The notes beneath the pieces were generated by a model. It did no database searches. It was not told the origin of the DNA and worked only from the letters and a program-made list of their open reading frames with translations. Positions 10,497-40,195 of a stretch of 40,195 bases of DNA are shown here, in pieces (within the stretch, counting starts at the first letter, position 1; the number at the start of each line of letters is the position of its first letter). The position numbers and the translations under genes were made by a program. The stretch is taken from IMG/VR virus record IMGVR_UViG_3300021061_000016, one strand, 5' to 3'. Origin of the DNA: a virus.

Positions 10497-10509
10497 CGCC
10501 GCGGACTCT

Positions 10510-10774: not shown

Positions 10775-10776
10775 CC

Positions 10777-10805
10777 TTGACAGACAATTAAAATTTCTTA
10801 ATAAT
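10777..10805 (+). promoter_or_regulatory. Sigma70-like promoter upstream of the integrase
   Basis: TTGACA (10777-10782), a 16-nt spacer, then TAATAA(T) at 10799-10805. Confidence 0.45.
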
Positions 10806-10950
10806 CACCCCTTCGTAATTTAGCCCATTTATACGCTTTTAAGGCCAGTTCAGCACTTTTGAACCCCTAGCTTTGGCCTCGCCTGGGAATCGCCATCGGA
10901 TTGCCCACAGGCCGCCCCTTTGATGGTAAAAAAGACCCTCAAGGGAAGCC

Positions 10951-11898
10951 ATGCCACCAATCAATAACCGATTTAAAAAGCCAACATTATCCGAAGATCT
11001 TTTAGCGGATTATCTGACATACCTTTCAGACCTTGCTCAGATGACCCCCGATTCCATCCGGCATAACCGGCGCTGGATCGAACGAATTGAGGAGGCCTAT
11101 GGAGGATCTATTCTGGGTGCCCAGACGGCCTCTCAAGTGAATGCTGCCATCCTTGAGGTGGCAAAGACCCGAAAAGTCGCCTATAACGGATCTCCTCAAT
11201 CAGAGGATACTGGCCAATTGAAGTTTAGGCTTGGCCGGGCGGTCGTCGGATATATGCGTTGGGCCTATTCTGAAAACTTTATCCAAAAGAATATCTACCA
11301 AAAAAATCCATTTAGAAGACCTCATAGCCCTGAGGCAAATTGGCATGATGAGGAGAGGACCATGGCTTTATATAAGGATGAGAGTTTTTCTTTATATGAT
11401 CGCGCTCTGATTCGCTTTCTTATAGATACCGGCTGCCGGGTGGGGGAGATGTGCCAAATCAAGCTTGAGGATGTTGATCTTGATAATGGACACGCGAGGA
11501 TCTTTATGCCAAAGGTCAAACGCCTTAAAGATGTCCCGTTATCAGAGCATACCTGTAAAACCTTGAAGGCTCTAATAAAACGTAGGCGGCACACTCCGTT
11601 TTTATTCCACAGTAGGCAAAGTGCCACCATAAGCCCTAACGCAGTGAGGATTCGCCTAAGAAAGTTGGGTCAGAAATTGGGCTATAGGATCAACCCTCAT
11701 TCCTTCCGACACGCGGCCGGAACATTATGGGTAAAACACCATGGCGAGATACAAGCTCAAAAGCTTTTAGGCCATGTGGACCATGCGGCCACCGCAAGAT
11801 ACACGCATTATCTCTTGAAGGACCTCAAAGAAATGCAAAGTGCAATTTACGAGGGAAGGCTGGCGCCCAGAGAGTTAGTATCCGCGTCCAAAAAATAA
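10951..11898 (+). CDS. int: Tyrosine recombinase / phage integrase
   Basis: 315 aa. Catalytic signature DTGCRVGEM ... HSFRHAAGT ... LLGHVDHAATARYTHY, that is R, HxxR, H and Y in the canonical order. Confidence 0.9.
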   Translation: MPPINNRFKKPTLSEDLLADYLTYLSDLAQMTPDSIRHNRRWIERIEEAYGGSILGAQTASQVNAAILEVAKTRKVAYNGSPQSEDTGQLKFRLGRAVVGYMRWAYSENFIQKNIYQKNPFRRPHSPEANWHDEERTMALYKDESFSLYDRALIRFLIDTGCRVGEMCQIKLEDVDLDNGHARIFMPKVKRLKDVPLSEHTCKTLKALIKRRRHTPFLFHSRQSATISPNAVRIRLRKLGQKLGYRINPHSFRHAAGTLWVKHHGEIQAQKLLGHVDHAATARYTHYLLKDLKEMQSAIYEGRLAPRELVSASKK

Positions 11899-17504: not shown

Positions 17505-17887
17505 CCTGGGGAGCGATTAAACGCAACCTCACCGACAAGCTTTTCTCGGACTATATCCGAATCAAAGCCAAGTGGATTTGCGAGCTTTGCAAGCGTGATT
17601 TTTCCACACGCCAATCTAAATTCGATTGCTCCCATTTTTACACCCGCGGAAACAAAGCTGTTCGCTTTGCCGAAGAAAACTGCTCCGCACTTTGCCGCGG
17701 ATGCCATGACTATTTCGGAAAGAACCCAAAAGAACACACTCTCTGGATGGAAAGAAAGCTTGGGATGGAAGGTTTTGCAAAGCTTACGATTCGAGCCCAC
17801 CAAACGAAACCCTCCTGGGAGATCAAATTTGACGAACAGACGATGAGGGTTTGGCTTAAACAACAACTGGCGAGGATGGGGGCATGA
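17501..17887 (+). CDS. NinG/Rap-like recombination endonuclease
   Basis: 128 aa. LFSDYIRIKAKWICELC ... DCSHFYTRGNKAVRFAEENCSALCRGCH follows the lambda NinG pattern FN.YIR.RD..C.SCG...GH....RF.E.N...C..CN. Confidence 0.6.
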   Translation: MTWGAIKRNLTDKLFSDYIRIKAKWICELCKRDFSTRQSKFDCSHFYTRGNKAVRFAEENCSALCRGCHDYFGKNPKEHTLWMERKLGMEGFAKLTIRAHQTKPSWEIKFDEQTMRVWLKQQLARMGA

Positions 17888-18288
17888 CCCAAATAGCGAT
17901 CGGCGAAGAAGTATATGCCATAAAAGCCTCCGCAGAACATGTGAAAGAGGAGTCGGAATGGTTCGGAAGTCAGATTGAATCTCTCCAAGCTTCCCGCATG
18001 AAATATCCGGTTGGCAAGGAGTTCAAGGTCCACCATCACATTCTCAATCCTCGGACCATCAAAAGAACCCAGGAAGCTTTTATCGTCATAAAAGGCAGGG
18101 TCGCCGTGGATATCTACGACATGAAGGGTGCCATCATCGGAAGTTTAGAAGCGGGTCCAGGTGAAGCGATCTTTGTCTACCGGGGCGGCCACGGCATACG
18201 GGTCCTTGAGGACTTTATCGGGTACGAGATCAAAGCCGGCAGCTATTCATACGTTTCAGAAGACAAGGTCTTTCTCGAAGATGTATGA
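17884..18288 (+). CDS. Cupin-fold protein (WbuC / sugar ketoisomerase-like)
   Basis: 134 aa; ATGA overlap upstream. KVHHHILNPRTIKRTQEAFIVIKGRVAVDIYD ... GEAIFVYRGGHGIRV is a cupin beta-barrel signature. First gene of the glycan island. Confidence 0.5.
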   Translation: MTQIAIGEEVYAIKASAEHVKEESEWFGSQIESLQASRMKYPVGKEFKVHHHILNPRTIKRTQEAFIVIKGRVAVDIYDMKGAIIGSLEAGPGEAIFVYRGGHGIRVLEDFIGYEIKAGSYSYVSEDKVFLEDV

Positions 18289-18868
18289 ACGAAACGATGT
18301 GATCAGGCAGTTTGAAAAGACCATCGCCGAGCATTGCGGTGCGCCTTATGGCGTTGCCGTTGAAAGCTGCACCGCAGCCCTTCTTCTGTGTTGCATTTAT
18401 CTCAAGGTCAAAGAGGTAACGATTCCCAAAAAAACTTATTATAGCGTCCCTTTCAGCATCCTTCATGCCGGAGGCACGGTCAATTTTGAAAGCTTGAAAT
18501 GGCGCGGGGCGTACCAACTAAAGCCTTATCCGATCATCGACAGCGCCATGAGATTTAAAAAAGCCATGTTCGAGCCGGGCAAATTAATGTGCCTATCGTT
18601 CCATTATGCAAAGCATATCCCAATCGGCCGGGGCGGGATGATCCTAACCGACAACAAGAAAGCCGCCGAATGGTTCCGCGTCATGCGTAACGATGGCCGG
18701 CGAGAAGTACCGAAGGAAATGGACAAAGTAAGGCTTGCCGGCTGGAACTTTTACATGAATCCCGAACAAGCGGCGAGAGGTTTGTCTTTGTACTATTGGC
18801 GCATTTTCAATCAAAAGGATCCTCAAGACCTTCCCATGACCCACGGAGATATTTCAAGTGTTCTCTAG
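18281..18868 (+). CDS. Short DegT/DnrJ/EryC1-like PLP-dependent sugar aminotransferase
   Basis: 195 aa from the internal ATG of track ORF 18161..18868. FEKTIAEHCGAPYGVAVESCTAALLL ... IIDSAMRF ... LSFHYAKHIPIGRGGMILTD retains the SFxxxK lysine motif. It is about half the usual length. Confidence 0.55.
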   Translation: MYERNDVIRQFEKTIAEHCGAPYGVAVESCTAALLLCCIYLKVKEVTIPKKTYYSVPFSILHAGGTVNFESLKWRGAYQLKPYPIIDSAMRFKKAMFEPGKLMCLSFHYAKHIPIGRGGMILTDNKKAAEWFRVMRNDGRREVPKEMDKVRLAGWNFYMNPEQAARGLSLYYWRIFNQKDPQDLPMTHGDISSVL

Positions 18869-19505
18869 AAACTACGCCGAATTTTACGATTTGTTCAATT
18901 CGGACAAGCCTTACAAAAAAGAAGTGGCCTTTGTCTACCGTTGGGCGGGGCGGCCTCATTCGATATTCGATATTGGCTGCGGGACAGGGAACTACTGGAG
19001 GCACTTTCCAAAATCGACCCATATTGTCGGCATCGACAGGTCGCAAGCGATGGTCGACAACGGCTATAGGATCATCCATGCCGACGCCATGACGTTTAAA
19101 ACCAATGTCCGGTTCGACTGTGCGACGGCCCTATTTGATGTCCTGAACTACATGCCGCGGAATGACTGGTGGGCCAATATCCCGGTGAAGAAGGGCGGGT
19201 ATTTCATCTTCGATATTTGGGACAAAAAAAAAGTTATGCGCGACGGTTTCAAGGAAACATTCAAGAACATCGGCCGGTATTGCCGGAAGATCACGCCTGT
19301 CCGGTGGAAGGAAAACGCCATTGATCTTAAGGTCGAGGTTATCTACATCGGCGACGATCATCACGAAACCGCCGCGAGCGAGATTCATACGATGTATCTC
19401 TATGGACAGAAGGACATCAAGAAATTTTGCGGTAAGGAATTTGAGATCGTCGATGTGAAGCCCACTAGCCGTTGGCAGACTTGGTATAAATGCAAAAAAA
19501 AATAG
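18858..19505 (+). CDS. Class I SAM-dependent methyltransferase
   Basis: 215 aa. Motif I IFDIGCGTGNYW, then post-I IVGIDRS. Confidence 0.7.
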   Translation: MFSRNYAEFYDLFNSDKPYKKEVAFVYRWAGRPHSIFDIGCGTGNYWRHFPKSTHIVGIDRSQAMVDNGYRIIHADAMTFKTNVRFDCATALFDVLNYMPRNDWWANIPVKKGGYFIFDIWDKKKVMRDGFKETFKNIGRYCRKITPVRWKENAIDLKVEVIYIGDDHHETAASEIHTMYLYGQKDIKKFCGKEFEIVDVKPTSRWQTWYKCKKK

Positions 19506-20530
19506 CACTCCTTCACCGCTACCCGGCCGATCAAATTAAATCCACCAATGCAGCGTTTCCGTATCTTGTTCAAAATCGATTCAGGGAGCCATTAGATTAT
19601 CGCCCAGGGGCAGTAAATTATTATGGCCCAGGCATGGACGTTTTAACCTTCAAATCCTTCGACCGCCTTTCCAAGTGGAAAAAGTTTTGGAAAAGCCTGG
19701 CCTGGATCTTCTATGCGCCTTACCTTGTCGCGGGAAAAGGCTATGACGTGATTTATTGCGACGATTCATACCCTTTTTATGGGGCAATCGTCAAAGCCGT
19801 ATGCCCGAGGGCGAAGGTTGTTTTAAGAATCGGCGACCTTCACCTCATGTATTACTATTCCGGCCTCGTATACAAGGTGCTGCACTTCCTTGAGCGTATC
19901 GCCTGGCTCATGGCCGACGAGATAATCGTTATATCTGAGGCGATGGCCGAATATTTTCATGCCGAAATTGGTCGCCGGCCGAAGGTCGTTTTAGACCCGG
20001 TCGATCCGGCAGACTTCCCGCCGATCCGGTCCTATCCCACCGAAACGATCATGTTTCACGGAACGCTTACCAAAAATAAGAACGTCGACATCATGCTCGA
20101 GGCCGCAAAATGGCTGCCGTATTACGACTTTGTAATTCTTGGCGACGGACCGGATTATGCAAGGCTCAAGAAAATCGCCACGAAAAACGTTCATTTCCAA
20201 GGATGGGTGCCGTTCAAGGATATCTACCAACATATCGCCTCATGCTCGATCGGGGTCGCTTTAAGAAGCGATAACCCGGGTAATGAGTATGTCGTCACCT
20301 CGCCCTTCATCCAGTACGGGATCATGGGAAAGCCCTGCCTTGTCACCCGCCGGAAGGTCTTTGGCGACTATAAATGGCAGTTCTCCAACGTCGCCGAAAT
20401 GGTGGAGAAGATACATATCCTCATGGTCCGGCCCGAGGAAGGAAAGAAACTCAAAGAGCATGTCTTGAAAAACCACGATGCTAAAAAGATCGCCGAGGAG
20501 ATATGGACGATCCTATCGTCACTATCGTAA
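19490..20530 (+). CDS. Glycosyltransferase, GT-B fold (GT1/GT4-like)
   Basis: 346 aa. C-terminal domain IMFHGTLTKNKNVDIMLEAAKWLPYYDFVILGDGPDYARLKK ... VHFQGWVP ... is typical of Glycos_transf_1. Confidence 0.75.
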   Translation: MQKKIALLHRYPADQIKSTNAAFPYLVQNRFREPLDYRPGAVNYYGPGMDVLTFKSFDRLSKWKKFWKSLAWIFYAPYLVAGKGYDVIYCDDSYPFYGAIVKAVCPRAKVVLRIGDLHLMYYYSGLVYKVLHFLERIAWLMADEIIVISEAMAEYFHAEIGRRPKVVLDPVDPADFPPIRSYPTETIMFHGTLTKNKNVDIMLEAAKWLPYYDFVILGDGPDYARLKKIATKNVHFQGWVPFKDIYQHIASCSIGVALRSDNPGNEYVVTSPFIQYGIMGKPCLVTRRKVFGDYKWQFSNVAEMVEKIHILMVRPEEGKKLKEHVLKNHDAKKIAEEIWTILSSLS

Positions 20531-21306
20531 TCCTCACGATGGGGGAAGCAAAAGAAGTTATAGAGTGCCTTGAAAACCAGACCTACAGAAGCTTCGAGAT
20601 CATCATTGCCAAAGAAAAGGGCATCGTAAACGCCATGAATAAGGCATTGGAGAAGGCCCGCGGCGAGATATTCGTCCGAGTCGATGATGATGTCGAGATC
20701 CCGGAAAGGTGGCTTGAGTCGCTTCTTTTCCCGTTTTCAGATCCCAACGTGGCCGGCGCCACAGGGCCTACATTCGTACCAGGCTACAGAAGGAAGAACA
20801 GGGACAGCATACGGATCTGGGAGAGGCCGAATTGGTTTTTAAGGTGGTTGCAGGATAACCGAGCTTTCGCGCCGGCGGCCATTTACAAATGCGGCATGGT
20901 TTCCTACGACTCCAATTACCGGGAAAGGTTTGGAAAAGGCTGCCATCTATTCACACCGGACCATCTGGAAGGGACAAATTGGGCCATGAGGACCGAGCTA
21001 ATCCGAAGGGTGGGCGGCTTTGACCCTGCCTTTGATGGGGTCGCAGAGTGGTTTGATACCGATGTCGAACAAAAGATAAAAAAGCTTGGTTACACGCTTC
21101 GCTATAGCACCGCAGCCTATCTATGGCACCTGGTAGAAAAGGGTGAGCATTTTGACGAGAGGTTCGCGGCATGGGGAAGGATCAAGAATTGGCTTAGGTA
21201 TCACTTAAGACACTCAAAACTTCATTGGAAGATGGCGGTCTATTTATTGGTTTGGATGGGTTACTTCATGCAAAAAAGGATCCAGCGATGCCTAAAGTTT
21301 CGGTAA
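20503..21306 (+). CDS. Glycosyltransferase family 2 (GT-A)
   Basis: 267 aa. VTIVILTMGE ... QTYRSFEIIIA ... GEIFVRVDDDVEIPERWLE (DxD motif). Confidence 0.75.
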   Translation: MDDPIVTIVILTMGEAKEVIECLENQTYRSFEIIIAKEKGIVNAMNKALEKARGEIFVRVDDDVEIPERWLESLLFPFSDPNVAGATGPTFVPGYRRKNRDSIRIWERPNWFLRWLQDNRAFAPAAIYKCGMVSYDSNYRERFGKGCHLFTPDHLEGTNWAMRTELIRRVGGFDPAFDGVAEWFDTDVEQKIKKLGYTLRYSTAAYLWHLVEKGEHFDERFAAWGRIKNWLRYHLRHSKLHWKMAVYLLVWMGYFMQKRIQRCLKFR

Positions 21307-22106
21307 TCATCCCCACAATGAAAGGCCGCAAGGCACTTTTGGAGAAGCTTCTTTCAACAATTCCATCCTATTGTGAAACGATCATTGTTGACGATGAGGA
21401 CATTCTTCTTGCTGCCAAAAGAAACAAAGGAGCTAAGAAGGCTACGGGAGAATACTTCCTTTTCATCGATGACGATAACTACTTAGCCCCAGGCGCTATC
21501 GCTGCTGCAATGACCTTGGCCGAAGATGATGGGGTGGGGGTGGTTGGCTTCATGGCTTGTTATGACGACAAGAAAAACCTTATTGCGGATGGCGGCTCAT
21601 ACAGGAATTACACGACCGGCTTTACCGATGGGCTTATGACGAATCACCGTTATTCGGAAATCGAAAAAGAGCCATATGAGGTTGACGAGGTTGCCAATGC
21701 CTTTTTAATGCACTCGGAGCTTTTCTTTGAGTTGCAAGGATTCGACGAAGAAAATTTCCCGATCGACTTGGACGAGGCCGACTTTTGTAAAAGAGCCAAG
21801 GAAAAGGGATACAAAATTATGATGTGTCCAAAGGCAAGGTGTTACCACAAATCACAAACATATAGTCCGATCCCGGACTTTAGGAGGCCAAGGAATGCGT
21901 ACTTTATGGGTAGGAATAGAATTATTTATCAGAGAAAGTTTAATCATCCTCTACGTTTTGGCGTGTACCTTTGCTTTTTCATGCCTGTATTTGTTGGTTT
22001 TTATTCGGCTTCGCTTATTTGGCGCCGGAAGCCGTTAATGATAGTGCATTTTTTAAAGGGGGTCTTTGATGGAATACTCGGTCGTCGAAAAAATACATAT
22101 CAATAG
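21288..22106 (+). CDS. Glycosyltransferase family 2 (GT-A) with a C-terminal hydrophobic segment
   Basis: ATG 21288 follows aagga. VSVIIPTMKGR ... GEYFLFIDDDNYLAPGAI ... DEADFCKRAKEKGYKI. Confidence 0.75.
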   Translation: MPKVSVIIPTMKGRKALLEKLLSTIPSYCETIIVDDEDILLAAKRNKGAKKATGEYFLFIDDDNYLAPGAIAAAMTLAEDDGVGVVGFMACYDDKKNLIADGGSYRNYTTGFTDGLMTNHRYSEIEKEPYEVDEVANAFLMHSELFFELQGFDEENFPIDLDEADFCKRAKEKGYKIMMCPKARCYHKSQTYSPIPDFRRPRNAYFMGRNRIIYQRKFNHPLRFGVYLCFFMPVFVGFYSASLIWRRKPLMIVHFLKGVFDGILGRRKNTYQ

Positions 22107-22872
22107 GGCGCGAGCAAAGAAGATCGGGGCGTTTCTTTACGACCCCAAGATCGACGGCCTTTACCTTGAAAGCCCATGGCCTTTCCCTGTGCAAATAGGA
22201 ATGACGAATCGCCTTTCAAAGTGCGAGGTGACCCCCATGTTCTTGAGGCTTCCTTTCATCATGAAGGGTTGGCTCAATCAGGACATCCTTCTTCGCATGG
22301 TGGATCTGCTTAGGCTTGTCGGTGAGGGAAAGATCTTGATGCACGGCTCTTGCGTTGGCGACACCCTCATCGTCGGGCTGCCGAATGCCGGAAAGACCTA
22401 TCAGACCTATCGCATGGTCTCAAGTGGCGGCAAGCTTATTTCCGAAGAATACACCGTTCTATATGACGGCAAGGCCCACCCATATAGCGACGTTATGCGG
22501 ACCTGTTTTTCCGCACGGACAATGAAGGATTGCGGAATCGATATGACCCTCTGGGAGAAGATCTGGCTTTTCTTTGCCACCATCCGGGCCAAGCTTTTTC
22601 CTTTCATGTACGAAGCGGTCATCTGGAAGGAGATCAAGGCAAGCGGAGAGGAGTCCAAAATCAAGCGTATTATCTACGGCTCGACCGGCCAAGAGGTGAA
22701 GGATTGGAAGCATTTTGCCATCCTCTGCGAGAACGAATTTCCTTTCATGTCGAGCGAGTTTTTACAGGCTTATGCCCTGGCCTCCGGCTTGGACCTCATC
22801 GCCATTCAGAACAAACAACGAGAATTGATAAGGAGATTTGTCCTTCATGTCTATCCTGATCACCGGAAATAG
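22069..22872 (+). CDS. HPr-kinase-like P-loop protein (HprK-related kinase)
   Basis: About 267 aa; SD aaaggggg upstream. LMHGSCVGDTLIVGLPNAGKTYQTYRMVSSGGKLISEEYTVLYDG parallels the HprK C-domain pattern lHa..v...g.gvli.G.sGsGKS..a..L...G..lvaDD. Confidence 0.55.
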   Translation: MEYSVVEKIHINRARAKKIGAFLYDPKIDGLYLESPWPFPVQIGMTNRLSKCEVTPMFLRLPFIMKGWLNQDILLRMVDLLRLVGEGKILMHGSCVGDTLIVGLPNAGKTYQTYRMVSSGGKLISEEYTVLYDGKAHPYSDVMRTCFSARTMKDCGIDMTLWEKIWLFFATIRAKLFPFMYEAVIWKEIKASGEESKIKRIIYGSTGQEVKDWKHFAILCENEFPFMSSEFLQAYALASGLDLIAIQNKQRELIRRFVLHVYPDHRK

Positions 22873-23545
22873 GGGCTTTATCGGGTCCGGCCTTAAAGGC
22901 GACGGGATCGACCTAAAGGACGGCGTCGATATCCTGACCTACCGGGCGACAAAAAGATATGACGTCGTTATCCATACCGCGGCCTTGGTGAGTGTGACCG
23001 AATCGATGAAAGACCTTGCTGGGTACTGGCGAACGAATGTCGACGGAACGGTCAACATGCTAAGGCAGCACCCGGAGGCCCATTTTATATACCTCTCGAC
23101 AGCGGCCGCTTATGGACCCGGAGAAGATCATAAAGTTGGCGACCATCTTTACCCGACGTCGCCATATGCCAAATCAAAGATCGTCGGCGAGTTGGCGGTT
23201 AAATACTTCGCCAAGACCTACTGCATTCTGCGCCTGACAAACGTGGTAGGGGATGGGGAAAGGGGCGAGCCTAACGTATTCCAGGTATTCAAGAAAGCCG
23301 ACATCCTTCCGATTTATGGTGACGGGCTACAGACTCGGGATTTTATCTCAGTCGATGATGTAAGGGCCGTCATTATGGAAATGGCCCATCTTAAGACCCA
23401 AGGCACATACAACGTCGGCTCTGGAAAATCCAAAACCATCCTTGAGGTCGCAAGGACCTTTGACAAGCCGGTCAGATTTTTTCCTGAAAGAGAAGGCGAG
23501 ATCAGACGTTTCGGAGTGGCCGATGCTATCCATCCTCATTCCTGA
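22847..23545 (+). CDS. Compact NAD-dependent epimerase/dehydratase (extended SDR)
   Basis: About 232 aa. ILITGNRGFIGSGL (GxxGxxG), STAAAYG, YAKSK (YxxxK). Confidence 0.7.
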   Translation: MSILITGNRGFIGSGLKGDGIDLKDGVDILTYRATKRYDVVIHTAALVSVTESMKDLAGYWRTNVDGTVNMLRQHPEAHFIYLSTAAAYGPGEDHKVGDHLYPTSPYAKSKIVGELAVKYFAKTYCILRLTNVVGDGERGEPNVFQVFKKADILPIYGDGLQTRDFISVDDVRAVIMEMAHLKTQGTYNVGSGKSKTILEVARTFDKPVRFFPEREGEIRRFGVADAIHPHS

Positions 23546-24116
23546 CCATAACGAGGAACGGATAAAGGAGTTCGTCGAGGAGGTCGAATCCCTTGGGATC
23601 GCCCATGAAATCGTCGTTTCCAAGGACTCGGAAAGTAGGGGCAAAGGATGGGCGCTGCGGGAGGCTTTTAAGGCGTCCCGTGGCGATTTGATCGCCTTCA
23701 TCGATGGGGACGGGGATATAAAGCCAAGGATGTTTTACCGGATGCTTCCATTCCTTGAAGATTTCGATGTGGTCGTGGGGTCCAAAAGGATTACGCGATC
23801 CCCAATGCGGCGAAAGGTCATGACCCGCCTTACCCGGTTATGGTTCAAGCTTCTTTTCGGGGTGCGAGTCGACACGCAAACAGGGATCAAGATTTTCCGA
23901 CGTGAGACATTCGACGTCTTCGCAAACTATTGGGAATCGAACGGCTTTATCTTTGACGTCGAGATCCTATCGGCGATGCAAGCCAACGGCGCAAGGATGA
24001 TCGAGGTTCCAATAGAGGCAGAGATAAGGAAGCAATTAGCGTTTAAAACCATATTCAGAATATTCGGAGAAAGCCTATGGCTAAAGTATCGGTTATTATC
24101 CCCACAAAAAAAATAG
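23523..24116 (+). CDS. Glycosyltransferase family 2, DPM1/GtrB-like (polyprenol-phosphate sugar synthase-like), lacking TM helices
   Basis: 197 aa from the internal ATG of track ORF 23442..24116. LSILIPDHNEE ... RGKGWALREAFKASRGDLIAFIDGDGD ... DTQTGIKIFRRE. Confidence 0.6.
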   Translation: MLSILIPDHNEERIKEFVEEVESLGIAHEIVVSKDSESRGKGWALREAFKASRGDLIAFIDGDGDIKPRMFYRMLPFLEDFDVVVGSKRITRSPMRRKVMTRLTRLWFKLLFGVRVDTQTGIKIFRRETFDVFANYWESNGFIFDVEILSAMQANGARMIEVPIEAEIRKQLAFKTIFRIFGESLWLKYRLLSPQKK

Positions 24117-24754
24117 ATTATTACGTTGAGCGGTGCTTAAGGCACTTGAAGAAGCTGCCGGAAGTTCATGAAATCCTTGTGATTCCTGACTCCGAATGCC
24201 CTGGGCTGCCGGCGACTAAGCGAAACTACGCCATGGCTAAGGCCACAGGTGACGTGTTCGCTTTCATCGATTCCGATGCCTACCCACACCCTAAATGGCT
24301 CAAGAACTCGCTCTACTGGCTCCAAACGTTCGACGCCGTATGCGGGCCTGGGGTTTTACCACCTGACGCTCCGTACGAAGAAAGGGTCGCAGATCAGGTT
24401 CATAAATGGCTTTTCTGCCCGTATAGGGTCACGCCTAAGGCCCCCAGGATCGTTCCATGGCACCCAACCTTCAATTTGGTTGTGAAGAAGGCTGTGGCGA
24501 CCGATTTCGAGGGTTATTTGACCGGCGAGGACGACAAGTTCGGGTTAAACATCAAGGGCGGGGTGTTTTACCACCCAGAGATCCTTGTCTATCACAACCG
24601 ACGCGGAGCCTTTAAGCCTTTATGGAAGCAGTTTGGGACGTATGCAAGGCATAAGGGGTGCTTTGCCGGCCTGGCTTTCGTGGCATGGGTTACGACGATA
24701 TGGACGTATGCGATCAATTACGTCAAAGGATTCATGAAAAGGAGCCCCAAATGA
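24077..24754 (+). CDS. Glycosyltransferase family 2 (GT-A) with a C-terminal TM segment
   Basis: 225 aa. VSVIIPTKKIDYYVERCL ... GDVFAFIDSDAYPHPKWL. C-terminal hydrophobic stretch FAGLAFVAWVTTIWTYAI. Confidence 0.7.
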   Translation: MAKVSVIIPTKKIDYYVERCLRHLKKLPEVHEILVIPDSECPGLPATKRNYAMAKATGDVFAFIDSDAYPHPKWLKNSLYWLQTFDAVCGPGVLPPDAPYEERVADQVHKWLFCPYRVTPKAPRIVPWHPTFNLVVKKAVATDFEGYLTGEDDKFGLNIKGGVFYHPEILVYHNRRGAFKPLWKQFGTYARHKGCFAGLAFVAWVTTIWTYAINYVKGFMKRSPK

Positions 24755-25782
24755 AAGTTCTAATCACCGGCTCCCTGGGTCTTGTAGGTTCGGCCGCCGT
24801 CCGATATTACCTCAACGAAGCTTGCGAGGTAATCGGCGTCGACAATGACATGCGAAAGCACTTCTTTGGCCCGGAGGCATCGGTCCTAAAGAACATGATC
24901 GACCACGGAAACTACCGCCACCACGGGATAGATATATCTAAGATCGAGCCAATTATCGAAGCAGAGAAGCCGGACGCCATCATTCATTGCGCTGCGCAGC
25001 CAAGCCACGACTACTCGGCCCAAAACCCTCTTTTAGACTTTGGTATCAACGCCTATTCGACCCTCATGCTTCTTGAAATGACCCGAAAGCATATCCCAGA
25101 AGCGGTCTTTGTTTATCTTTCGACGAATAAAGTTTATGGGGATACGCCAAACTATTTCAGGACCATGAAAGAAGAAGAAACTCGTTATGAAGCTTACAAC
25201 ACAGTTACCGTTGGTATGGATTTAGTTACAGAGTTTTCGGACTTAAGCAATGGCATTTCAGAGGGGATGCCAGTCGACATGACCACCCACTCCCCCTTCG
25301 GGGTATCCAAGCTCGCCGGTGATCTCTACGTCCAGGAATACGCCCGGTACTTCGGATTAAAAACAGGCGTCTTTCGTTGTGGCTGCATCACAGGGGCCGC
25401 CCATGCCGGCGCCGAGCTTCACGGCTTTTTGTCCTACATGGTCCGCTGCAAGAAAGAAAACAGGAGGTACAAGGTCTATGGGTATAAGGGCAAACAGGTA
25501 CGCGACAATATCCACGCTTCTGACTTGGTTCGTGCTATCGATGCTTTTGTCCAGGATCCCAGCCCTGGTGAAGTCTATAACATTGGTGGTGGACGCCATT
25601 CAAACATATCCGTCCTCGAAGCCCTGAACTGGCTCAAAATTAAGGATTGGGAATACGTCGACCAGGCAAGGAAGGGGGATCATATTTGGTATATCTCTGA
25701 CGTGTCCAAGTTCAAGGCGCATTATCCCGGGTGGGATTATAAATACAATATGTGGGCGATTATGGAGGATTTGATGAGATGA
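24751..25782 (+). CDS. NAD-dependent sugar epimerase/dehydratase (extended SDR, CDP-paratose-2-epimerase-like)
   Basis: 343 aa; ATGA overlap upstream. VLITGSLGLVGSA, VIGVDNDMRK, STNKVYG, FGVSKLAGD (YxxxK-type catalytic region), GKQVRDNIHASDL. Confidence 0.7.
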   Translation: MKVLITGSLGLVGSAAVRYYLNEACEVIGVDNDMRKHFFGPEASVLKNMIDHGNYRHHGIDISKIEPIIEAEKPDAIIHCAAQPSHDYSAQNPLLDFGINAYSTLMLLEMTRKHIPEAVFVYLSTNKVYGDTPNYFRTMKEEETRYEAYNTVTVGMDLVTEFSDLSNGISEGMPVDMTTHSPFGVSKLAGDLYVQEYARYFGLKTGVFRCGCITGAAHAGAELHGFLSYMVRCKKENRRYKVYGYKGKQVRDNIHASDLVRAIDAFVQDPSPGEVYNIGGGRHSNISVLEALNWLKIKDWEYVDQARKGDHIWYISDVSKFKAHYPGWDYKYNMWAIMEDLMR

Positions 25783-25913
25783 CAATCGTTTTCATCGATA
25801 ATGGTAAGAAAGTATCTTACGAGTTGCTTTACGAATTTGATAGCTACTTAGGTTTTCTTTTAGACGAAGCCAAAAAGGAATTGAGGGGATGCGATGAGAA
25901 GAAAAAGATATAA
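25779..25913 (+). CDS. Possible 44-aa ORF in the AT-rich insert
   Basis: ATGA overlap with the SDR stop. Sequence MTIVFIDNGKKVSYELLYEFDSYLGFLLDEAKKELRGCDEKKKI. Below the track cutoff. Confidence 0.35.
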   Translation: MTIVFIDNGKKVSYELLYEFDSYLGFLLDEAKKELRGCDEKKKI

Positions 25914-26142
25914 ACTTTTCAATGAGGATAGAGTTGTAATCGAAGAATTTCCTAAAATGAAAAAATGTGGCAATTCAAAGGTGACTGAAAAAGTTCAAAA
26001 CCAAAGGTGCATTCAAACAAACAAATGCAAATTTTGTGGGGATAAAATTATTTGGCAAAAAACATCTGGTGGACGATGGCTCCCGTTCAATATTGATTCA
26101 CATATTCCTCATCCATATTTGTGTAAAGAAATAAACAAATGA
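25894..26142 (+). CDS. Small Cys-rich protein translationally coupled to the radical SAM gene
   Basis: 82 aa with five Cys (C25, C39, C45, C48, C77), including CKFCGDKIIWQKTSGGRWLPFNIDSHIPHPYLC. Visibly AT-rich DNA. ATGA overlap with the 26139 start. Confidence 0.5.
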   Translation: MRRKRYKLFNEDRVVIEEFPKMKKCGNSKVTEKVQNQRCIQTNKCKFCGDKIIWQKTSGGRWLPFNIDSHIPHPYLCKEINK

Positions 26143-27179
26143 GATACCTTTTCCCGCTTAATCCGTACAACCAACAGCGCCAATTCCAAAAGCCGGTATG
26201 GGTATACCCCGCCCACCTTGCGATGTATGCCACGCATTTGAGGAATGAGGGGCATGAGGTTAGATGGGGGCATGCGACTACTCCAATAATGAAAGAGGAT
26301 ATTTCAATAAGGGCAGATGATATTTTAATAATGAACGACTTTCAAATCGACGTGCCGTTCGATCAGCTGCCTTTCCCGGACCGTGAATTTACCGACGCCA
26401 AGCATCCCAGGTGGCAATCCTATGGAAACTATAAGCTTCACCCGGCAACGCATTACATGTCCTCCAATCTTTGTTGGTGGGGGAAGTGTACGTTTTGCAT
26501 CGACACCGCGAAGCTCGAGGCCGGCGAAAAAAGAGGCGTCCGGCCGGTCGACCATGTCCTTGAGGAAATAGACGATTGTATCCGGCTTGGCTTTAGGGAA
26601 ATGTTCGACGATGCCGGGACGATCCCCATAGGAGATTGGCTTGAGGAGTTATGCAAAAAAATGATAGAAAGCGGCCGGAACAAAAAGATCATGCTCGGCT
26701 GCAACTTAAAGCCTATATCCAAAAAGGTCGTGCCTTTTAAGCTCATGAAAGAGGCCGGGTTTCGCTTTATTCTTGTCGGCATCGAATCGGCCAATCAAAA
26801 AACGATCGACCTGATCAAGAAAGGCCAGGACTCGGCCAAGGTCATTGAGAACATGAAAGCCATGAACGACGCGGGGCTTGAGGTCCATTTGACCTCAATG
26901 TTCGGCTATCCGTGGGAAACTCACGAAGACGCCATGCGGACGGTAAGCGAGATCCATTACCTTCTTCGGAAAGGCTATGTGAAGACCGCCCAAGCCTCGG
27001 TGTATATGCCGCCCAGGACCGCGCCGGACCCATGCTCCCCGTCGCAGCAGTATATCCAAAAGGTCTATGACATCTACAAAGACCCCCGGTATTGGGTAAG
27101 GAAGGCCTTAGATATCAAGCGAATTGAGGACATCACATATTTACTCAAAAGGATTGGACACGTTAAACATGCCGAGTGA
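26139..27179 (+). CDS. Radical SAM enzyme, class-B (B12-binding-like N-terminus)
   Basis: 346 aa. LPFPDREF, cluster motif CWWGKCTFC (26472-26498), VGIESANQKTIDLIKKG, MFGYPWET. Confidence 0.65.
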   Translation: MRYLFPLNPYNQQRQFQKPVWVYPAHLAMYATHLRNEGHEVRWGHATTPIMKEDISIRADDILIMNDFQIDVPFDQLPFPDREFTDAKHPRWQSYGNYKLHPATHYMSSNLCWWGKCTFCIDTAKLEAGEKRGVRPVDHVLEEIDDCIRLGFREMFDDAGTIPIGDWLEELCKKMIESGRNKKIMLGCNLKPISKKVVPFKLMKEAGFRFILVGIESANQKTIDLIKKGQDSAKVIENMKAMNDAGLEVHLTSMFGYPWETHEDAMRTVSEIHYLLRKGYVKTAQASVYMPPRTAPDPCSPSQQYIQKVYDIYKDPRYWVRKALDIKRIEDITYLLKRIGHVKHAE

Positions 27180-28539
27180 AATAGGATGGATCATAGTCGT
27201 CAATCTTGCCCTTTATTTCAAGACCCTACGCTTTAAATTCGTATCGGATGATTTCACGGTCTGGAAGAACCCACCCGTCCCAAAAAGCCCCATTCATAAG
27301 CTGTGGCTGCAGTTGTCAGGCCAGATGAAGATCTACGCCAAGTCGATCAGGTTTGTCCGGCATAACGGTAAGCTTTTTATTGCGATAGTCCGGGCCGAGG
27401 AAATGGAGCATTTACTAGCTCTTCTTCTCCATATCGGGATCTGTATCTCGATTTATTTTGCATTCGGGGCCTCATGGGTGTCCTTTGTGGCAGCCCTTCT
27501 ATACTCGACCAATCCGGTCAATAACCAGGGAACGATATGGCCCTCCGGCCGCGGGTACGTCTTTCCAATCCTTGGGATCCTATTGGCAATGGCTATGCCT
27601 TTGGCCTCGCCGCTATTTCTATACGCCGGGACGTGGTACACCGCCGGCTTTTTGGCCCCCCTGGCCCTTATAGGCTCGTCCAAAGCCTATCTTTTATGGC
27701 TTATGCCGATCATCTGGTGGCTGCACTCAAAGAAATTCACCAAGGCCGTCAAGAATAAGCAGAACACCGAGTGCTTCACCGAGGATAGGCTAGTCCACCC
27801 CAAAAAGCTCATTTTGGGGGTCAAATCCTTCGGGTTTTACCTATTTCTGTGCCTTATCCCGTTCAGGATCACGTTCTATCATAACTTCCTTCAATCGTCG
27901 GCGGGGTCTATGAGGCATAAGAATTACACGCTTTGCCGGTACTTTTGGCTCGGCCTTGGCGCGATTGGGGCATGGATGTACTTTGCCCTCACCCAACCGT
28001 GGAACCCGCTTCTTTGGGCTTCTTTGGCCTTCTTTATCACGATCGTCCCTTTTTGCAACATCGTCAGGGCCAATCAAGAGATCGCCGAGCGCTTTGCAGC
28101 CCTCCCAAACGTCTTTTTGATGTATGCCTTGGCCCAAATTATTGCATGGAACCCAATTCTAATAGCGGCTATTGTGTCGTTTTACGCATGCCGTACATTC
28201 TATACGCTCAACCTCTACAAAGACGAATATTGGATCACAGAACTCGCGGTAGCAGAAGATCCCCATGCTTGGTGGGCTTGGCATTGCCGGGCGATGAAGC
28301 GGTGGGACACCCAAAGCTACAAGGAAGCTTTAATCCTATGGGTCATGGCCAAGATCATTTCTCCGAAGGAATTTAAGATCCTAATGAATATCGCCACCTG
28401 TCTTCGGCTTTTACAGAACCACAAGGAAGCCGATGAATACTTGAAGCTCGCCCAAGAGAACATCGTTCCGGGGCAGGAAGAAACGGCCGCACAGTTTATC
28501 GCAGAGCATCGCAAAGGGAAGCTCCTCATCTTGCTGTAA
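27169..28539 (+). CDS. GT-C fold membrane glycosyltransferase (TMTC/PMT-like, DUF1736-like) with C-terminal TPR-like repeats
   Basis: 456 aa from the internal ATG of track ORF 27124..28539. N-terminal LRFKFVSDDFTVWKN acidic loop motif, at least nine hydrophobic segments, and a C-terminus SYKEALILWVMAKIISPKEFKILMNIATCLRLLQNHKEADEYLKLAQE. Confidence 0.6.
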   Translation: MPSEIGWIIVVNLALYFKTLRFKFVSDDFTVWKNPPVPKSPIHKLWLQLSGQMKIYAKSIRFVRHNGKLFIAIVRAEEMEHLLALLLHIGICISIYFAFGASWVSFVAALLYSTNPVNNQGTIWPSGRGYVFPILGILLAMAMPLASPLFLYAGTWYTAGFLAPLALIGSSKAYLLWLMPIIWWLHSKKFTKAVKNKQNTECFTEDRLVHPKKLILGVKSFGFYLFLCLIPFRITFYHNFLQSSAGSMRHKNYTLCRYFWLGLGAIGAWMYFALTQPWNPLLWASLAFFITIVPFCNIVRANQEIAERFAALPNVFLMYALAQIIAWNPILIAAIVSFYACRTFYTLNLYKDEYWITELAVAEDPHAWWAWHCRAMKRWDTQSYKEALILWVMAKIISPKEFKILMNIATCLRLLQNHKEADEYLKLAQENIVPGQEETAAQFIAEHRKGKLLILL

Positions 28540-39846: not shown

Positions 39847-40195
39847 AACACCGCGTATTAAGCGCTTTACTTGCGTTACTTCTAATCCAAAGCACCGCTT
39901 TTGGAGCATGTGACTCTTTTACAAAGCTCATGCTTCACAAGAACGGTGCGGATGCCTCCACCACCTTCACGGATAGCTCGACCTCCGCGCATACGGTCAC
40001 GGCAGTAGGAAACGCGCAGATCGATACGGCTCAATCTAAATTCGGTGGGGCGTCCGGGCTATTCGATGGGGCGGGAGATTATCTAACCGTCCCAGACCAT
40101 GCTGATTTTGACTTTGGAACTGGTGATTTTACCGTAGACGCGTGGGTTAGGTTTAGTGGCAGTGTATCAAACGACACACTCGTCACCAGGGGTAA
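39843..40195 (+). CDS. LamG-domain protein with a signal peptide/lipobox-like N-terminus, 5' portion (continues at 3..503)
   Basis: ATGA overlap upstream. Sequence MKHRVLSALLALLLIQSTAFGAC then LMLHKNGADASTTFTDSS ... AQSKFGGASGLFDGAGDYLTVPDHADFDF. The frame runs off the window end into the terminal repeat. Confidence 0.8.
   Translation, partial: MKHRVLSALLALLLIQSTAFGACDSFTKLMLHKNGADASTTFTDSSTSAHTVTAVGNAQIDTAQSKFGGASGLFDGAGDYLTVPDHADFDFGTGDFTVDAWVRFSGSVSNDTLVTRG
40069..40195. repeat. Terminal direct repeat, copy 2; identical to 1..127
   Basis: Exact 127-nt identity with the window start. Confidence 0.95.

What the first reader, a model, noticed from the sequence alone, without database searches (positions are those of the whole stretch)
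27169..28539. A TMTC/PMT-like GT-C transferase with TPRs, paired with a soluble DPM1/GtrB-like GT2, suggests periplasmic protein glycosylation rather than O-antigen glucosylation
The 456-aa ORF has the GT-C hallmark of an acidic motif in the first extracytoplasmic loop (FKFVSDDFTVWKN). It also has many hydrophobic helices and a C-terminal TPR-like region. That architecture belongs to TMTC/PMT-type protein O-mannosyltransferases, not to GtrC-type serotype-conversion enzymes.

The GT2 at 23523..24116 (DGDGD, DTQTGIKIFRRE) resembles polyprenol-phosphate sugar synthases, which would supply the lipid-linked donor. It lacks the C-terminal TM helices of GtrB. I am not aware of a described phage carrying a two-step lipid-linked donor plus a TPR-bearing GT-C module.
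Basis: partly seen in the sequence, partly recalled or inferred. Interest (0 to 1): 0.7.

Follow-up and report, generated by a model that had tools for sequence, protein, structure and literature searches.

The report
Phage TMTC-like membrane glycosyltransferase with TPRs
An uncultivated temperate phage carries a previously unannotated membrane enzyme, distantly related to the animal TMTC protein O-mannosyltransferases, at the end of a 10-kb sugar-biosynthesis operon, and it most likely decorates the host cell envelope from the periplasmic side.

Summary
The ORF at 27169..28539 (456 aa) is real and belongs to a large family with no Pfam, NCBIfam, PHROG or PADLOC assignment: 614 clusters at 50% identity, and every context examined is phage-like. 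AlphaFold gives a confident model (pLDDT 89) with about 11 transmembrane helices followed by three TPRs.

Profile-profile comparison with genuine TMTC3-family proteins gives 99.5% probability and E = 4e-22 over 421 columns (reversed controls E = 0.1–0.2). The alignment puts the invariant D27-D28 on the TMTC DD motif and the invariant R308 on the TMTC lipid-phosphate arginine. The TMTC-defining DUF1736 loop and K-E motif are not detectable, and there are only 3 TPRs. It is therefore a new GT-C family related to TMTC, not a TMTC member. No evidence supports Wzy/WaaL.

The 197-aa GT2 at 23523..24116 is the only one of four GT2s that best matches polyprenyl-phosphate sugar synthases (AglJ, ArnC, DPMS, GtrB-like), and it has no TM helix.

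The "two-gene pair" reading is too narrow. The gene closes a tightly overlapping operon of about 12 genes, which is syntenic in 11 of 11 close relatives, and one distant relative has no sugar genes nearby. Whether the acceptor is a protein or a glycan remains untested.

The parts
27169..28539 (+). Target gene: 456-aa GT-C-type membrane glycosyltransferase with a C-terminal TPR domain. It belongs to a new, unannotated phage family.
   Evidence: ORF. At least 259 close homologs. 614 clusters at 50% identity. AF2 pLDDT 89. hhalign to TMTC 99.5%, E = 4.3e-22.
27169..28224 (+). Membrane domain, residues 1-352, about 11 TM helices. Inferred topology: N-terminus in, C-terminus out.
   Evidence: AF2 helices. 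The K/R-rich loop 185-212 has net charge +4.2, and the segment after the last TM is net negative. Collinear with TMTC. The only Foldseek PDB hits with TM-score above 0.25 are GT-C enzymes.
27247..27252 (+). Codons for D27-D28, the 'DD' motif in the first extracytoplasmic loop. Inferred catalytic base or metal ligand.
   Evidence: D27 140/140; D28 136 D + 4 E of 140. Aligned to the TMTC M1 DD motif (motif defined in PMC7801869).
27484..27558 (+). Residues 106-130, FVAALLYSTNPVNNQGTIWPSGRGY: TM3/EL2 segment with conserved P116, Q120, W124, G127, R/K128 and Y130.
   Evidence: Aligned to TMTC 'AALLFAVHPIHTEAV..GR'. Conservation counts.
28087..28095 (+). Codons for E307-R308-F309, an '(E/D)-R-Y' motif just before the penultimate TM helix. 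Inferred ligand of the lipid-donor phosphate.
   Evidence: R308 143/143; position 307 acidic in 121/143; position 309 is Y in 129/143. Aligned to the TMTC M7 'AERV' motif: C-terminal halves alone E = 4.6e-4 against controls of 0.16-0.24.
28225..28512 (+). TPR domain, residues 353-448: three TPRs. Inferred to be periplasmic and to select the acceptor.
   Evidence: Foldseek to SycD, IpgC and CTPR3 at rmsd 2-3 A. PDB profile hits E = 6e-69. Junction and TPR1-2 are collinear with TMTC.
26139..27179 (+). Radical SAM enzyme, 346 aa, class-B-like core, CX4CX2C. Overlaps the target by 11 nt.
   Evidence: PF04055 3.4e-15. HpnJ, PhpK and AprD4-type hits. Adjacent to the target in 17 close-relative loci and in the 41%-identity subfamily.
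23523..24116 (+). GT2c: 197-aa soluble GT-A of the polyprenyl-phosphate sugar synthase type (GtrB/DPM1/ArnC/AglJ-like).
   Evidence: PF00535. AglJ 2.9e-11, Dol-P-hexose transferase, ArnC and PgfS. PHROG GtrB-like 5.8e-9. PDB ArnC 2.6e-4 and DPMS 2.9e-3. No TM helix.
24751..25782 (+). SDR2: NDP-hexose 4,6-dehydratase-like enzyme.
   Evidence: Epimerase 2.6e-39. dTDP-glucose 4,6-dehydratase 2.9e-36.
24077..24754 (+). GT2d: GT2 with one C-terminal hydrophobic helix, glycan-extending type.
   Evidence: PF00535. MftF, AglG and EpsD-type hits. TM segment 195-213.
22847..23545 (+). SDR1: short NAD-dependent epimerase/reductase.
   Evidence: PF01370 2.5e-31.
22069..22872 (+). Conserved P-loop protein of unknown function (GLPNAGKT).
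   Evidence: No hit in any library or in the PDB. 60-72% identical in all 11 cluster-bearing relatives with enough upstream sequence.
21288..22106 (+). GT2b: GT2 with a C-terminal TM helix.
20503..21306 (+). GT2a: glycan-extending GT2.
19634..20530 (+). GT4 (GT-B) glycosyltransferase.
   Evidence: PglH-like.
18858..19505 (+). SAM-dependent methyltransferase.
18281..18868 (+). Short DegT/PseC-like sugar aminotransferase.
   Evidence: PF01041 1.9e-20. PseC and LegC hits.
17884..18288 (+). WbuC-family cupin: first gene of the sugar operon.
   Evidence: TIGR04366 9e-7.

Best explanation
The gene encodes a GT-C-fold, polyprenyl-phosphate-sugar-dependent glycosyltransferase that works on the periplasmic face of the host inner membrane.

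Shown:
- It is homologous to the TMTC clade of GT-C enzymes.
- It retains the two residue clusters that bind and activate the lipid-linked donor in GT-C enzymes: the DD motif in the first outer loop, and the invariant Arg before the penultimate TM helix.
- It is fused to three TPRs.
- It closes a phage operon that encodes an NDP-sugar tailoring pathway (4,6-dehydratase, epimerase/reductase, aminotransferase, methyltransferase, cupin, radical SAM) and an ArnC/GtrB/DPM1-type GT2.

Inferred:
- The operon makes an unusual, probably amino- or methyl-modified, 6-deoxyhexose nucleotide.
- The 197-aa GT2 loads that sugar onto undecaprenyl phosphate at the cytoplasmic face.
- A host flippase moves it across the membrane, since the operon encodes none.
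- The GT-C enzyme transfers it to an envelope acceptor that the periplasmic TPR domain selects. I favour a surface or periplasmic protein such as a pilin, adhesin or receptor, by analogy with TMTC and with Pseudomonas TfpW.
- The biological pay-off would be masking of a receptor, giving superinfection exclusion or protecting progeny from adsorbing to debris, in a temperate phage that also encodes an integrase.
For: - Homology to TMTC: hhalign gives 98.2% and E = 3.9e-14 for the membrane domain and 99.5% and E = 4.3e-22 over 421 collinear columns for the full length. Reversed controls give 0.3-0.6% and E = 0.1-0.2.
- DD and R308 align with TMTC motifs M1 and M7, whose roles are described in PMC7801869. 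They are invariant in 140-143 diverse representatives.
- Foldseek of the membrane domain: the only hits with TM-score 0.27-0.37 are AglB, STT3, ALG9 and Pmt1.
- TPR confirmed.
- GT2c best matches AglJ, ArnC, DPMS and GtrB-like enzymes. The other three GT2s match glycan-extending enzymes.
- Tight operon with 4-40 nt overlaps, syntenic in 11 of 11 close relatives with enough upstream sequence. A 197-aa GT2, SDRs, a methyltransferase and a radical SAM recur in the 41%-identity subfamily.
- Bacterial precedents: TfpW has 11 TMs, an essential DDX in periplasmic loop 1 and a periplasmic TPR, and acts on pilin. GtrB with a GT-C enzyme performs protein O-glucosylation in streptococci.
- Temperate lifestyle: integrase, RecT/YqaJ and NinG.
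Against: - No structural match is statistically significant (best GT-C E = 0.19).
- The central third of the membrane domain, including the TMTC K-E metal/phosphate motif and the DUF1736 'DW' loop, has no detectable counterpart. The active site therefore differs from TMTC, and activity is unproven.
- No flippase and no initiating phosphoglycosyltransferase are encoded in the operon.
- Four further GTs have no role in a simple one-sugar scheme.
- A 33%-identical relative has no sugar genes within 10 kb, so the enzyme does not depend on a phage-encoded donor pathway.
- Two distant relatives end in a SecA-type SEC-C zinc motif directly after the TPR, which would normally indicate a cytoplasmic location.
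- TPRs also bind glycans or partner proteins, so they do not establish a protein acceptor.
- The host is unknown.
Confidence: 0.6

Rival explanations
1. Same enzyme chemistry, but the acceptor is a glycan or lipid rather than a protein. This would be an Arn-like or Gtr-like modification of lipid A, LPS core, O-antigen, a capsule or another envelope polymer, with the TPR serving as a scaffold to host machinery.
For: - The operon has the logical parts of the Arn pathway: DegT aminotransferase, SDRs, an ArnC-like GT2 (PDB ArnC is the best match, E = 2.6e-4) and a GT-C enzyme.
- Every characterised phage GtrB plus membrane-transferase system modifies O-antigen (established knowledge; the PHROG 'GtrB-like O-antigen conversion' family hits GT2c).
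- TPRs in polysaccharide machines bind glycans or partner proteins (noted).
Against: - ArnT, GtrC and YfhO-type glycan or lipid modifiers do not carry TPRs.
- The two characterised GT-C plus TPR architectures, TMTC and TfpW, both act on proteins.
- The target has no PHROG hit, so it matches no GtrC family.
Confidence: 0.3
2. The enzyme is an oligosaccharyltransferase. The five phage glycosyltransferases would build an oligosaccharide on a polyprenyl carrier, and the GT-C enzyme would transfer it en bloc, as AglB or PglB do.
For: - Five GTs are conserved in synteny with the target.
- The top structural neighbours include AglB and STT3.
- GT2c best matches AglJ, which starts an oligosaccharide on dolichyl monophosphate, and the other GT2s weakly match AglG. 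This would explain the absence of a phosphoglycosyltransferase.
Against: - Sequence homology is to the TMTC/ArnT-like clade, which transfers single sugars from lipid monophosphates (PMC7801869).
- No STT3/PglB WWDxG-type domain was found: no Pfam or PDB sequence hit.
- The AglJ and AglG scores are far below the curated cut-offs.
- A relative carries the target without any GTs nearby.
Confidence: 0.12
3. It is not a glycosyltransferase of the GT-C type. It would instead be an O-antigen ligase or polymerase (WaaL/Wzy), a SEDS-like protein, or a non-enzymatic membrane scaffold whose TPR faces the cytoplasm.
For: - The SEC-C zinc motif after the TPR in two distant relatives suggests a cytoplasmic C-terminus.
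- Foldseek E-values for GT-C enzymes are not significant.
- Wzy_C plus TPR architectures exist in bacteria (my own knowledge, not tested here).
Against: - Wzy_C (PF04932) is not hit by any of 45 members at E <= 1.
- No WaaL, Wzy, RodA or FtsW structure appears among the top 50 Foldseek hits, whereas GT-C enzymes do.
- There is a strong and specific profile match to TMTC, with the catalytic motifs in register.
- Invariant polar residues cluster in the loops predicted to face outward.
Confidence: 0.05

Closest known systems
TMTC1-4 (CAZy GT105; metazoan ER protein O-mannosyltransferases for cadherins)
   Same: Significant profile-profile homology (99.5%, E = 4e-22). Collinear architecture: N-terminal TM1, a DD loop, about 11 TM helices, then TPRs immediately after the last helix. 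Shared DD (M1), the 'xPxxxE/Q...GR' TM3/EL2 segment and the AER (M7) arginine (motifs from PMC7801869).
   Different: No DUF1736/PF08409 loop, no K-E (M4) motif and no DW (M5) motif detectable. The membrane domain is about 350 aa against about 430 aa. Three TPRs instead of many. It is phage-encoded, so the donor would be an undecaprenyl-linked sugar, not dolichyl-phosphate mannose. It also has a beta-hairpin insert in EL1 (residues 57-76).
Pseudomonas aeruginosa TfpW (GT-C arabinofuranosyltransferase for type IV pilin)
   Same: Bacterial enzyme with a cytoplasmic N-terminus, 11 predicted TMs, an essential DDX motif in periplasmic loop 1 and a periplasmic C-terminal TPR domain. It is modelled on ArnT, uses a polyprenyl-phosphate sugar, and acts on a protein acceptor.
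   Different: TfpW is 646 aa, chromosomal and encoded next to pilA. Direct sequence homology to the phage family could not be tested here because no TfpW sequence was available. TfpW also polymerises the glycan.
Phage GtrABC serotype-conversion modules and bacterial three-component glycosylation systems (GtrB/CsbB plus GtrA/GtcA flippase plus GtrC/YfhO/PgtC2)
   Same: The logic is the same. A cytoplasmic GT2 makes Und-P-sugar and a polytopic GT-C enzyme transfers it outside the membrane. These modules are carried by temperate phages, and GtrB with PgtC2 glycosylates proteins in streptococci.
   Different: The target matches no PHROG family, so no GtrC family. No GtrA-like flippase is encoded. 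The GT2 lacks the two C-terminal TM helices of GtrB. The module is embedded in a 10-kb sugar-tailoring operon with a radical SAM. The transferase carries TPRs.
Arn pathway (ArnB, ArnA, ArnC, ArnD, ArnE/F, ArnT)
   Same: It combines a DegT aminotransferase, SDR enzymes, an ArnC-like GT2 (the best PDB match of GT2c) and a GT-C transferase of the ArnT/TMTC clan.
   Different: No formyltransferase, deformylase or ArnE/F flippase. ArnT has no TPR. My ArnT profile was too shallow to test homology: the positive control also failed.

Membership tests
GT-C superfamily (lipid-phosphate-sugar-dependent membrane glycosyltransferases) | Polytopic membrane protein with a conserved acidic (D/E) motif in the first extracytoplasmic loop | tested here: met
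   D27 140/140; D28 136 D + 4 E of 140. The motif sits directly after TM1 and aligns to the TMTC DD motif.
GT-C superfamily (lipid-phosphate-sugar-dependent membrane glycosyltransferases) | Conserved basic residue that binds the donor phosphate, in the outer loop before the penultimate TM helix | tested here: met
   R308 143/143. Aligned to the TMTC AER arginine. The role of that arginine in PglB, STT3 and AglB is described in PMC7801869.
GT-C superfamily (lipid-phosphate-sugar-dependent membrane glycosyltransferases) | GT-C fold by structure comparison | tested here: inconclusive
   Foldseek of the membrane-domain model gives no hit with E < 0.1. The only hits with TM-score 0.27-0.37 and probability 0.5-0.85 are AglB, ALG9, STT3 and Pmt1. 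Other membrane proteins score 0.11-0.18.
GT-C superfamily (lipid-phosphate-sugar-dependent membrane glycosyltransferases) | Uses a polyprenyl-phosphate-linked sugar donor | not testable with these tools
   Needs biochemistry.
TMTC family (GT105, Pfam PF08409) | Significant sequence-profile similarity to TMTC proteins | tested here: met
   hhalign 99.5%, E = 4.3e-22, 421 columns. Reversed controls E = 0.1-0.2.
TMTC family (GT105, Pfam PF08409) | DUF1736 loop (PF08409) with the DW motif between TM7 and TM8 | tested here: not met
   No PF08409 hit for the target or any of 45 members at E <= 1. hhalign of the central regions gives E = 0.27, the same as the control.
TMTC family (GT105, Pfam PF08409) | KE(T/Q)xxT motif in EL3 (metal and phosphate ligands) | tested here: not met
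   No alignable counterpart. The corresponding region is poorly conserved in A2.
TMTC family (GT105, Pfam PF08409) | Long C-terminal TPR array on the lumenal/extracytoplasmic side | tested here: inconclusive
   TPRs are present and collinear with TMTC, but there are only three (median C-terminal domain 104 aa). The side of the membrane is inferred, not shown, and the SEC-C tails in two relatives argue the other way.
PMT family (GT39; PF02366, with MIR domains) | PMT or PMT_2 Pfam domain and a lumenal MIR domain | tested here: not met
   No PF02366, PF13231 or MIR hit in the target or 45 members. The Pmt1 structure is only a weak Foldseek hit.
O-antigen ligase/polymerase (WaaL, Wzy; PF04932) | Wzy_C domain, or WaaL/SEDS-like fold | tested here: not met
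   No PF04932 hit in 45 members at E <= 1. No WaaL, Wzy, RodA or FtsW among the top 50 Foldseek hits. Single-sequence hhalign controls were uninformative.
Phage GtrC-type serotype-conversion transferases | Membership of a phage GtrC family in PHROGs | tested here: not met
   Zero PHROG hits at E <= 0.01. No tblastn hit in 50,697 phage records.
Polyprenyl-phosphate sugar synthases (GtrB/DPM1/ArnC/AglJ-type GT2), tested for the 197-aa GT2 at 23523..24116 | GT2 (GT-A) domain with a DxD, and best similarity to Und-P/Dol-P glycosyltransferases | tested here: met
   PF00535 at 43 bits against a cut-off of 23. Best NCBIfam hits are AglJ 2.9e-11, Dol-P-hexose transferase, PgfS and ArnC, all below the equivalog cut-offs. 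PHROG GtrB-like 5.8e-9. PDB hits are ArnC and DPMS. The three neighbouring GT2s instead match EpsD, MftF, AglG and PglI.
Polyprenyl-phosphate sugar synthases (GtrB/DPM1/ArnC/AglJ-type GT2), tested for the 197-aa GT2 at 23523..24116 | C-terminal transmembrane helices (GtrB, ArnC, archaeal DPMS) | tested here: not met
   Maximum 19-residue hydropathy is 0.87, so there is no TM segment. Like human DPM1, it would need another way to reach the membrane.

The most novel reading that the evidence does not exclude
The operon is a self-contained, phage-borne protein-glycosylation pathway with archaeal-style logic. An AglJ/GtrB-like GT2 would start a glycan on undecaprenyl monophosphate, so no phosphoglycosyltransferase would be needed. 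The GT4 and the three other GT2s would extend it with a radical-SAM- and methyltransferase-tailored amino-deoxy sugar. The TMTC-like TPR enzyme would then transfer it to host surface proteins to re-code the cell surface during lysogeny or infection. That would make it the first viral member of the TMTC clade and the first phage-encoded protein O-glycosylation system acting in the periplasm.
Probability: 0.12. Interest if true: 0.85.

Novelty: new variant of a known kind. Interest (0 to 1): 0.55.

Why it matters
Phage-encoded surface glycosylation is known almost entirely from GtrABC-type O-antigen conversion. This protein family is large: at least 614 clusters at 50% identity, mostly on 40-kb metagenomic phage genomes. 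It has no Pfam, PHROG, NCBIfam or PADLOC assignment and no homolog in deposited phage genomes. Even so, it is demonstrably related to the animal TMTC protein O-mannosyltransferases and has the same architecture as the pilin glycosyltransferase TfpW.

If it glycosylates host proteins, phage-driven remodelling of the cell surface, and therefore receptor masking and superinfection exclusion, would extend from polysaccharides to proteins. It would also supply a compact, 456-aa, bacterially expressible relative of TMTC for mechanistic and structural work. The linked radical-SAM and sugar-tailoring operon may encode a new sugar.

If the acceptor turns out to be LPS, the finding is a divergent but conceptually ordinary serotype-conversion module.

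Tried and rejected
- Foldseek with the full-length model returned only TPR proteins. I re-predicted residues 1-352 alone to expose the membrane domain.
- Family profiles against PDB sequences gave only TPR hits.
- Single-sequence hhalign controls with E. coli ArnT, WaaL, WzyE, RodA, WzxE and ThrP all scored at noise. The known TMTC-ArnT relationship was missed as well, so these negatives carry no weight.
- I spent the last homolog search on ArnT. All hits were at least 76% identical, the profile was too shallow, and the TMTC-ArnT positive control failed at E = 0.08. Homology to ArnT is therefore untested.
- The search for related loci with the diverse alignment A2 failed for lack of conserved stretches. 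With A1 it found only one locus in GTDB genomes: a 40.8-kb phage-sized contig binned in a 'Ca. Methanoperedens' MAG. I read this as a mis-binned phage, because the window encodes RecT, YqaJ, NinG, an integrase and a DPBB (RlpA-like) cell-wall domain.
- PADLOC: no hit for the target, the radical SAM, the P-loop ORF, the small Cys-rich ORF or GT2c. A defence-system reading has no support.
- No tRNA genes were found, so none is available as a clue to the integration site or host.
It served only to retrieve database proteins, which carry PF08409 and TMTC3 names from their sources. All comparisons used those retrieved proteins.


Full report
**1. The observation**

The ORF is present as described. 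The ATG at 27169 gives 456 aa. It overlaps the stop codon of the upstream radical-SAM gene by 11 nt and follows an AAGGA. Exactly this product was called on nine public contigs, several of about 40.2 kb.

The sequence FKFVSDDF follows the first hydrophobic helix. The window itself is a complete phage genome of about 40,068 bp, assembled with a 127-nt terminal overlap. All genes are on one strand. It encodes a terminase, a T7-type portal, a major capsid protein and tail proteins, together with an integrase, RecT/YqaJ, NinG and a DPBB cell-wall domain. It is therefore a temperate podophage of a bacterium.

**2. A large, unannotated, phage-borne family**

The target has no hit in Pfam, PHROGs or PADLOC. 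Its only NCBIfam hit is a weak TPR-type match. A word-indexed search found at least 259 relatives, all unnamed and many on contigs of 36-43 kb. An exhaustive profile search found 614 clusters at 50% identity with E <= 1e-3, and 197 with E <= 1e-30.

tblastn against 50,697 deposited phage genomes found nothing. In GTDB species genomes the only close relative lies on a 40.8-kb phage-sized contig binned with an archaeal MAG. Every genomic context I could read was either phage-like or too short to judge.

**3. Structure**

AlphaFold2 with the family alignment gives pLDDT 89 and pTM 0.88. Residues 1-352 alone give pLDDT 82 and pTM 0.85. The model has these elements:
- TM1 (residues 2-21).
- An outer loop with two short helices and a beta-hairpin (57-76).
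- Ten further membrane-length helices.
- Six helices at residues 353-448.

The last six helices are a bona fide three-repeat TPR:
- About 100 residues superpose on SycD, IpgC and designed CTPR3 at rmsd 2-3 A.
- The diverse family profile hits consensus TPR proteins at E = 6e-69.
- TPR Pfam models hit 21 of 45 members.

For the isolated membrane domain, no Foldseek hit is significant. The only hits with TM-score 0.27-0.37 are GT-C enzymes: AglB, ALG9, STT3 and Pmt1. Transporters and GPCRs score 0.11-0.18, and no WaaL, Wzy or SEDS protein appears. This is suggestive, not conclusive. In the viral structure library the best neighbours are two uncharacterised proteins of uncultured phages.

**4. 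Homology to TMTC**

I then compared profiles with hhalign.

| Comparison | Probability | E-value | Reversed controls |
|---|---|---|---|
| Membrane domains only | 98.2% | 3.9e-14 | E = 0.1-0.2 (0.3-0.6%) |
| Full length (421 collinear columns) | 99.5% | 4.3e-22 | not run |
| C-terminal halves alone | 33% | 4.6e-4 | E = 0.16-0.24 |
| Central thirds | 0.2% | 0.27 | E = 0.31 |

The membrane-domain alignment places several features in register:
- D27-D28 on the TMTC DD motif.
- H81 and H88 in TM2.
- 'AALLYSTNPVNNQ..GR' on TMTC 'AALLFAVHPIHTEAV..GR'.

The full-length alignment runs through 'PFCN..QEIAERF' against 'PASN..VVAERVLY', the last two helices, the junction and the first TPRs. The central third, which holds the K-E motif and the DUF1736 'DW' loop in TMTC, shows no similarity.

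The TMTC motif definitions and the roles of the DD pair and the AER arginine come from PMC7801869. According to that paper, the arginine binds the phosphate of the lipid-linked donor in PglB, STT3 and AglB.

Conservation across 150 diverse representatives:

| Residue | Conservation |
|---|---|
| D27 | 140/140 |
| D28 | 136 D + 4 E of 140 |
| R308 | 143/143 |
| K219 | 143/146 |
| Y130 | 142/143 |
| W124 | 136/143 |
| H88 | 130/142 |
| H81 | 124/142 |

Conclusion: this is a new family of the GT-C superfamily, related to the TMTC/ArnT-like clade. It is not a TMTC member, because the defining DUF1736 loop is not met.

**5. Topology**

Three lines of evidence favour N-in, 11 TM helices and a periplasmic TPR:
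- Collinearity with TMTC.
- A K/R-rich loop at residues 185-212 (net charge +4.2).
- A net-negative segment after the last helix.

This is the topology shown experimentally for loop 1 and the C-terminus of TfpW. One observation conflicts with it. Two distant relatives end in a canonical SecA-type SEC-C zinc motif directly after the TPR, and that motif is normally cytoplasmic. I could not resolve this.

**6. Genomic context**

Its genes overlap by 4-40 nt, and promoter- or terminator-like sites are not enriched. In order, the operon encodes:
- a WbuC-type cupin
- a short DegT/PseC-like aminotransferase
- a methyltransferase
- a GT4
- two GT2s
- a conserved P-loop protein with no known relatives
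- a short SDR
- the 197-aa GT2
- another GT2
- a 4,6-dehydratase-like SDR
- a class-B-like radical SAM
- the target

The order is conserved in 11 of 11 close relatives with enough upstream sequence. A 41%-identical subfamily again has a 197-aa GT2, further GT2s, SDRs, a methyltransferase and a radical SAM that overlaps the target. Other relatives differ: one has Asn-synthase-like and YdjC genes upstream, and one has no sugar genes in 10 kb. The enzyme is therefore more widespread than any one donor pathway. No flippase, phosphoglycosyltransferase, Wzx or Wzy is encoded.

**7. The 197-aa GT2**

Of the four GT2s, only this one best matches polyprenyl-phosphate glycosyltransferases:
- AglJ at 2.9e-11, Dol-P-hexose transferase, PgfS and ArnC in NCBIfam.
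- The PHROG 'GtrB-like' family at 5.8e-9.
- ArnC and Pyrococcus Dol-P-Man synthase among solved structures.

It has no hydrophobic segment. The other three GT2s match glycan-extending enzymes, and two of them carry one C-terminal TM helix.

**8. Mechanism and comparison**

The best-supported model is a Gtr/Arn-like two-compartment pathway:
- The operon tailors an NDP-6-deoxy, amino or methyl sugar.
- The soluble GT2 loads it on undecaprenyl phosphate.
- A host flippase translocates it.
- The TMTC-like enzyme transfers it in the periplasm to an acceptor chosen by the TPR.

Steps shown:
- Homology of the target to GT-C enzymes.
- Conservation of the motifs.
- The TPR.
- The gene content and synteny of the operon.

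Steps inferred:
- The donor.
- The topology.
- The acceptor.
- The biological role.

The closest functional precedents are these:
- TMTC: GT-C plus TPR, protein acceptor.
- TfpW: a bacterial GT-C with 11 TMs, a DDX motif and a periplasmic TPR, which acts on pilin.
- Streptococcal GtrB with PgtC2: protein O-glucosylation.
- Phage GtrABC modules.

I favour a protein acceptor, but the evidence is only architectural. A glycan or lipid A acceptor remains a serious rival, and an oligosaccharyltransferase role would explain the five GTs.

**9. Verdict**

This is a new variant of a known kind of system: periplasmic glycosylation from a lipid-linked donor, carried by a temperate phage. It is built around a new GT-C family that is the first viral relative of TMTC I could find in the collections searched. 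Interest is moderate to high. It is not conceptually unprecedented, but the family is abundant, wholly unannotated and readily testable.

Noticed in passing
window 1-127 and 40069-40195: The first 30 nt of the window recur at 40069. The window is therefore a circularly assembled, complete phage genome of about 40,068 bp with a 127-nt terminal overlap. All large ORFs are on the + strand.
   Followed up: partly
window 26139-27179: The radical SAM enzyme is translationally coupled to the target by an 11-nt overlap, and the same adjacency occurs in a 41%-identity subfamily (L032). It has a CX4CX2C cluster motif (C-W-W-G-K-C-T-F-C). It resembles class-B (cobalamin) radical SAM enzymes such as HpnJ and PhpK, but it is only 346 aa, so the B12 domain looks reduced. 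It may carry out an unusual sugar modification.
   Followed up: partly
window 22069-22872: A 267-aa protein with a P-loop (GLPNAGKT) has no hit in Pfam, NCBIfam, PHROGs, PADLOC or PDB sequences. It is nevertheless 60-72% conserved in every cluster-bearing relative, so it is an unknown but obligatory component of the sugar operon.
   Followed up: partly
P0156 and P0270 (distant family members; L007 98-1642): A canonical SecA-type SEC-C zinc motif (…CKCGSGKKFKHCHGE) sits directly after the TPR domain with no extra TM helix. It is normally a cytoplasmic motif, which conflicts with the inferred periplasmic location of the TPR.
   Followed up: partly
window 18281-18868 and 22847-23545: The DegT-like aminotransferase (195-235 aa, against a 360-position Pfam DegT model) and the first SDR (about 232 aa) are unusually short, yet both are conserved in relatives. 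They could be minimal enzymes, split genes or degenerate genes.
   Followed up: no
L006 (contig ERZ27254846 k141_1737587), gene 10001-11380: A 33%-identical homolog sits just upstream of the terminase in a different phage. That phage has lambda-like replication genes (Phage_rep_O, DnaC-like) and an MT-A70 methylase, and no sugar genes in the 10 kb upstream. The GT-C/TPR gene therefore travels independently of the glycan operon.
   Followed up: partly
L005 (JAHFDG010000034.1) and P0061: Phage-sized or short contigs carrying this gene are binned in MAGs labelled 'Candidatus Methanoperedens' and 'Candidatus Parcubacteria'. These are probably mis-binned phage contigs. The true host is unknown.
   Followed up: no
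window 5357-9442: A very large ORF (1361 aa) lies downstream of the tail genes. Only its N-terminal 330 aa or so match a PHROG family of unknown function. It may be an internal virion or ejection protein, or a tail fibre.
   Followed up: no
window 25894-26142: A Cys-rich 82-aa ORF (CGNS…CKFCGDK…C) lies between the dehydratase and the radical SAM, with no family hit. It is conserved only in identical contigs. The public gene calls place a 44-aa ORF at 25779-25913 instead.
   Followed up: no
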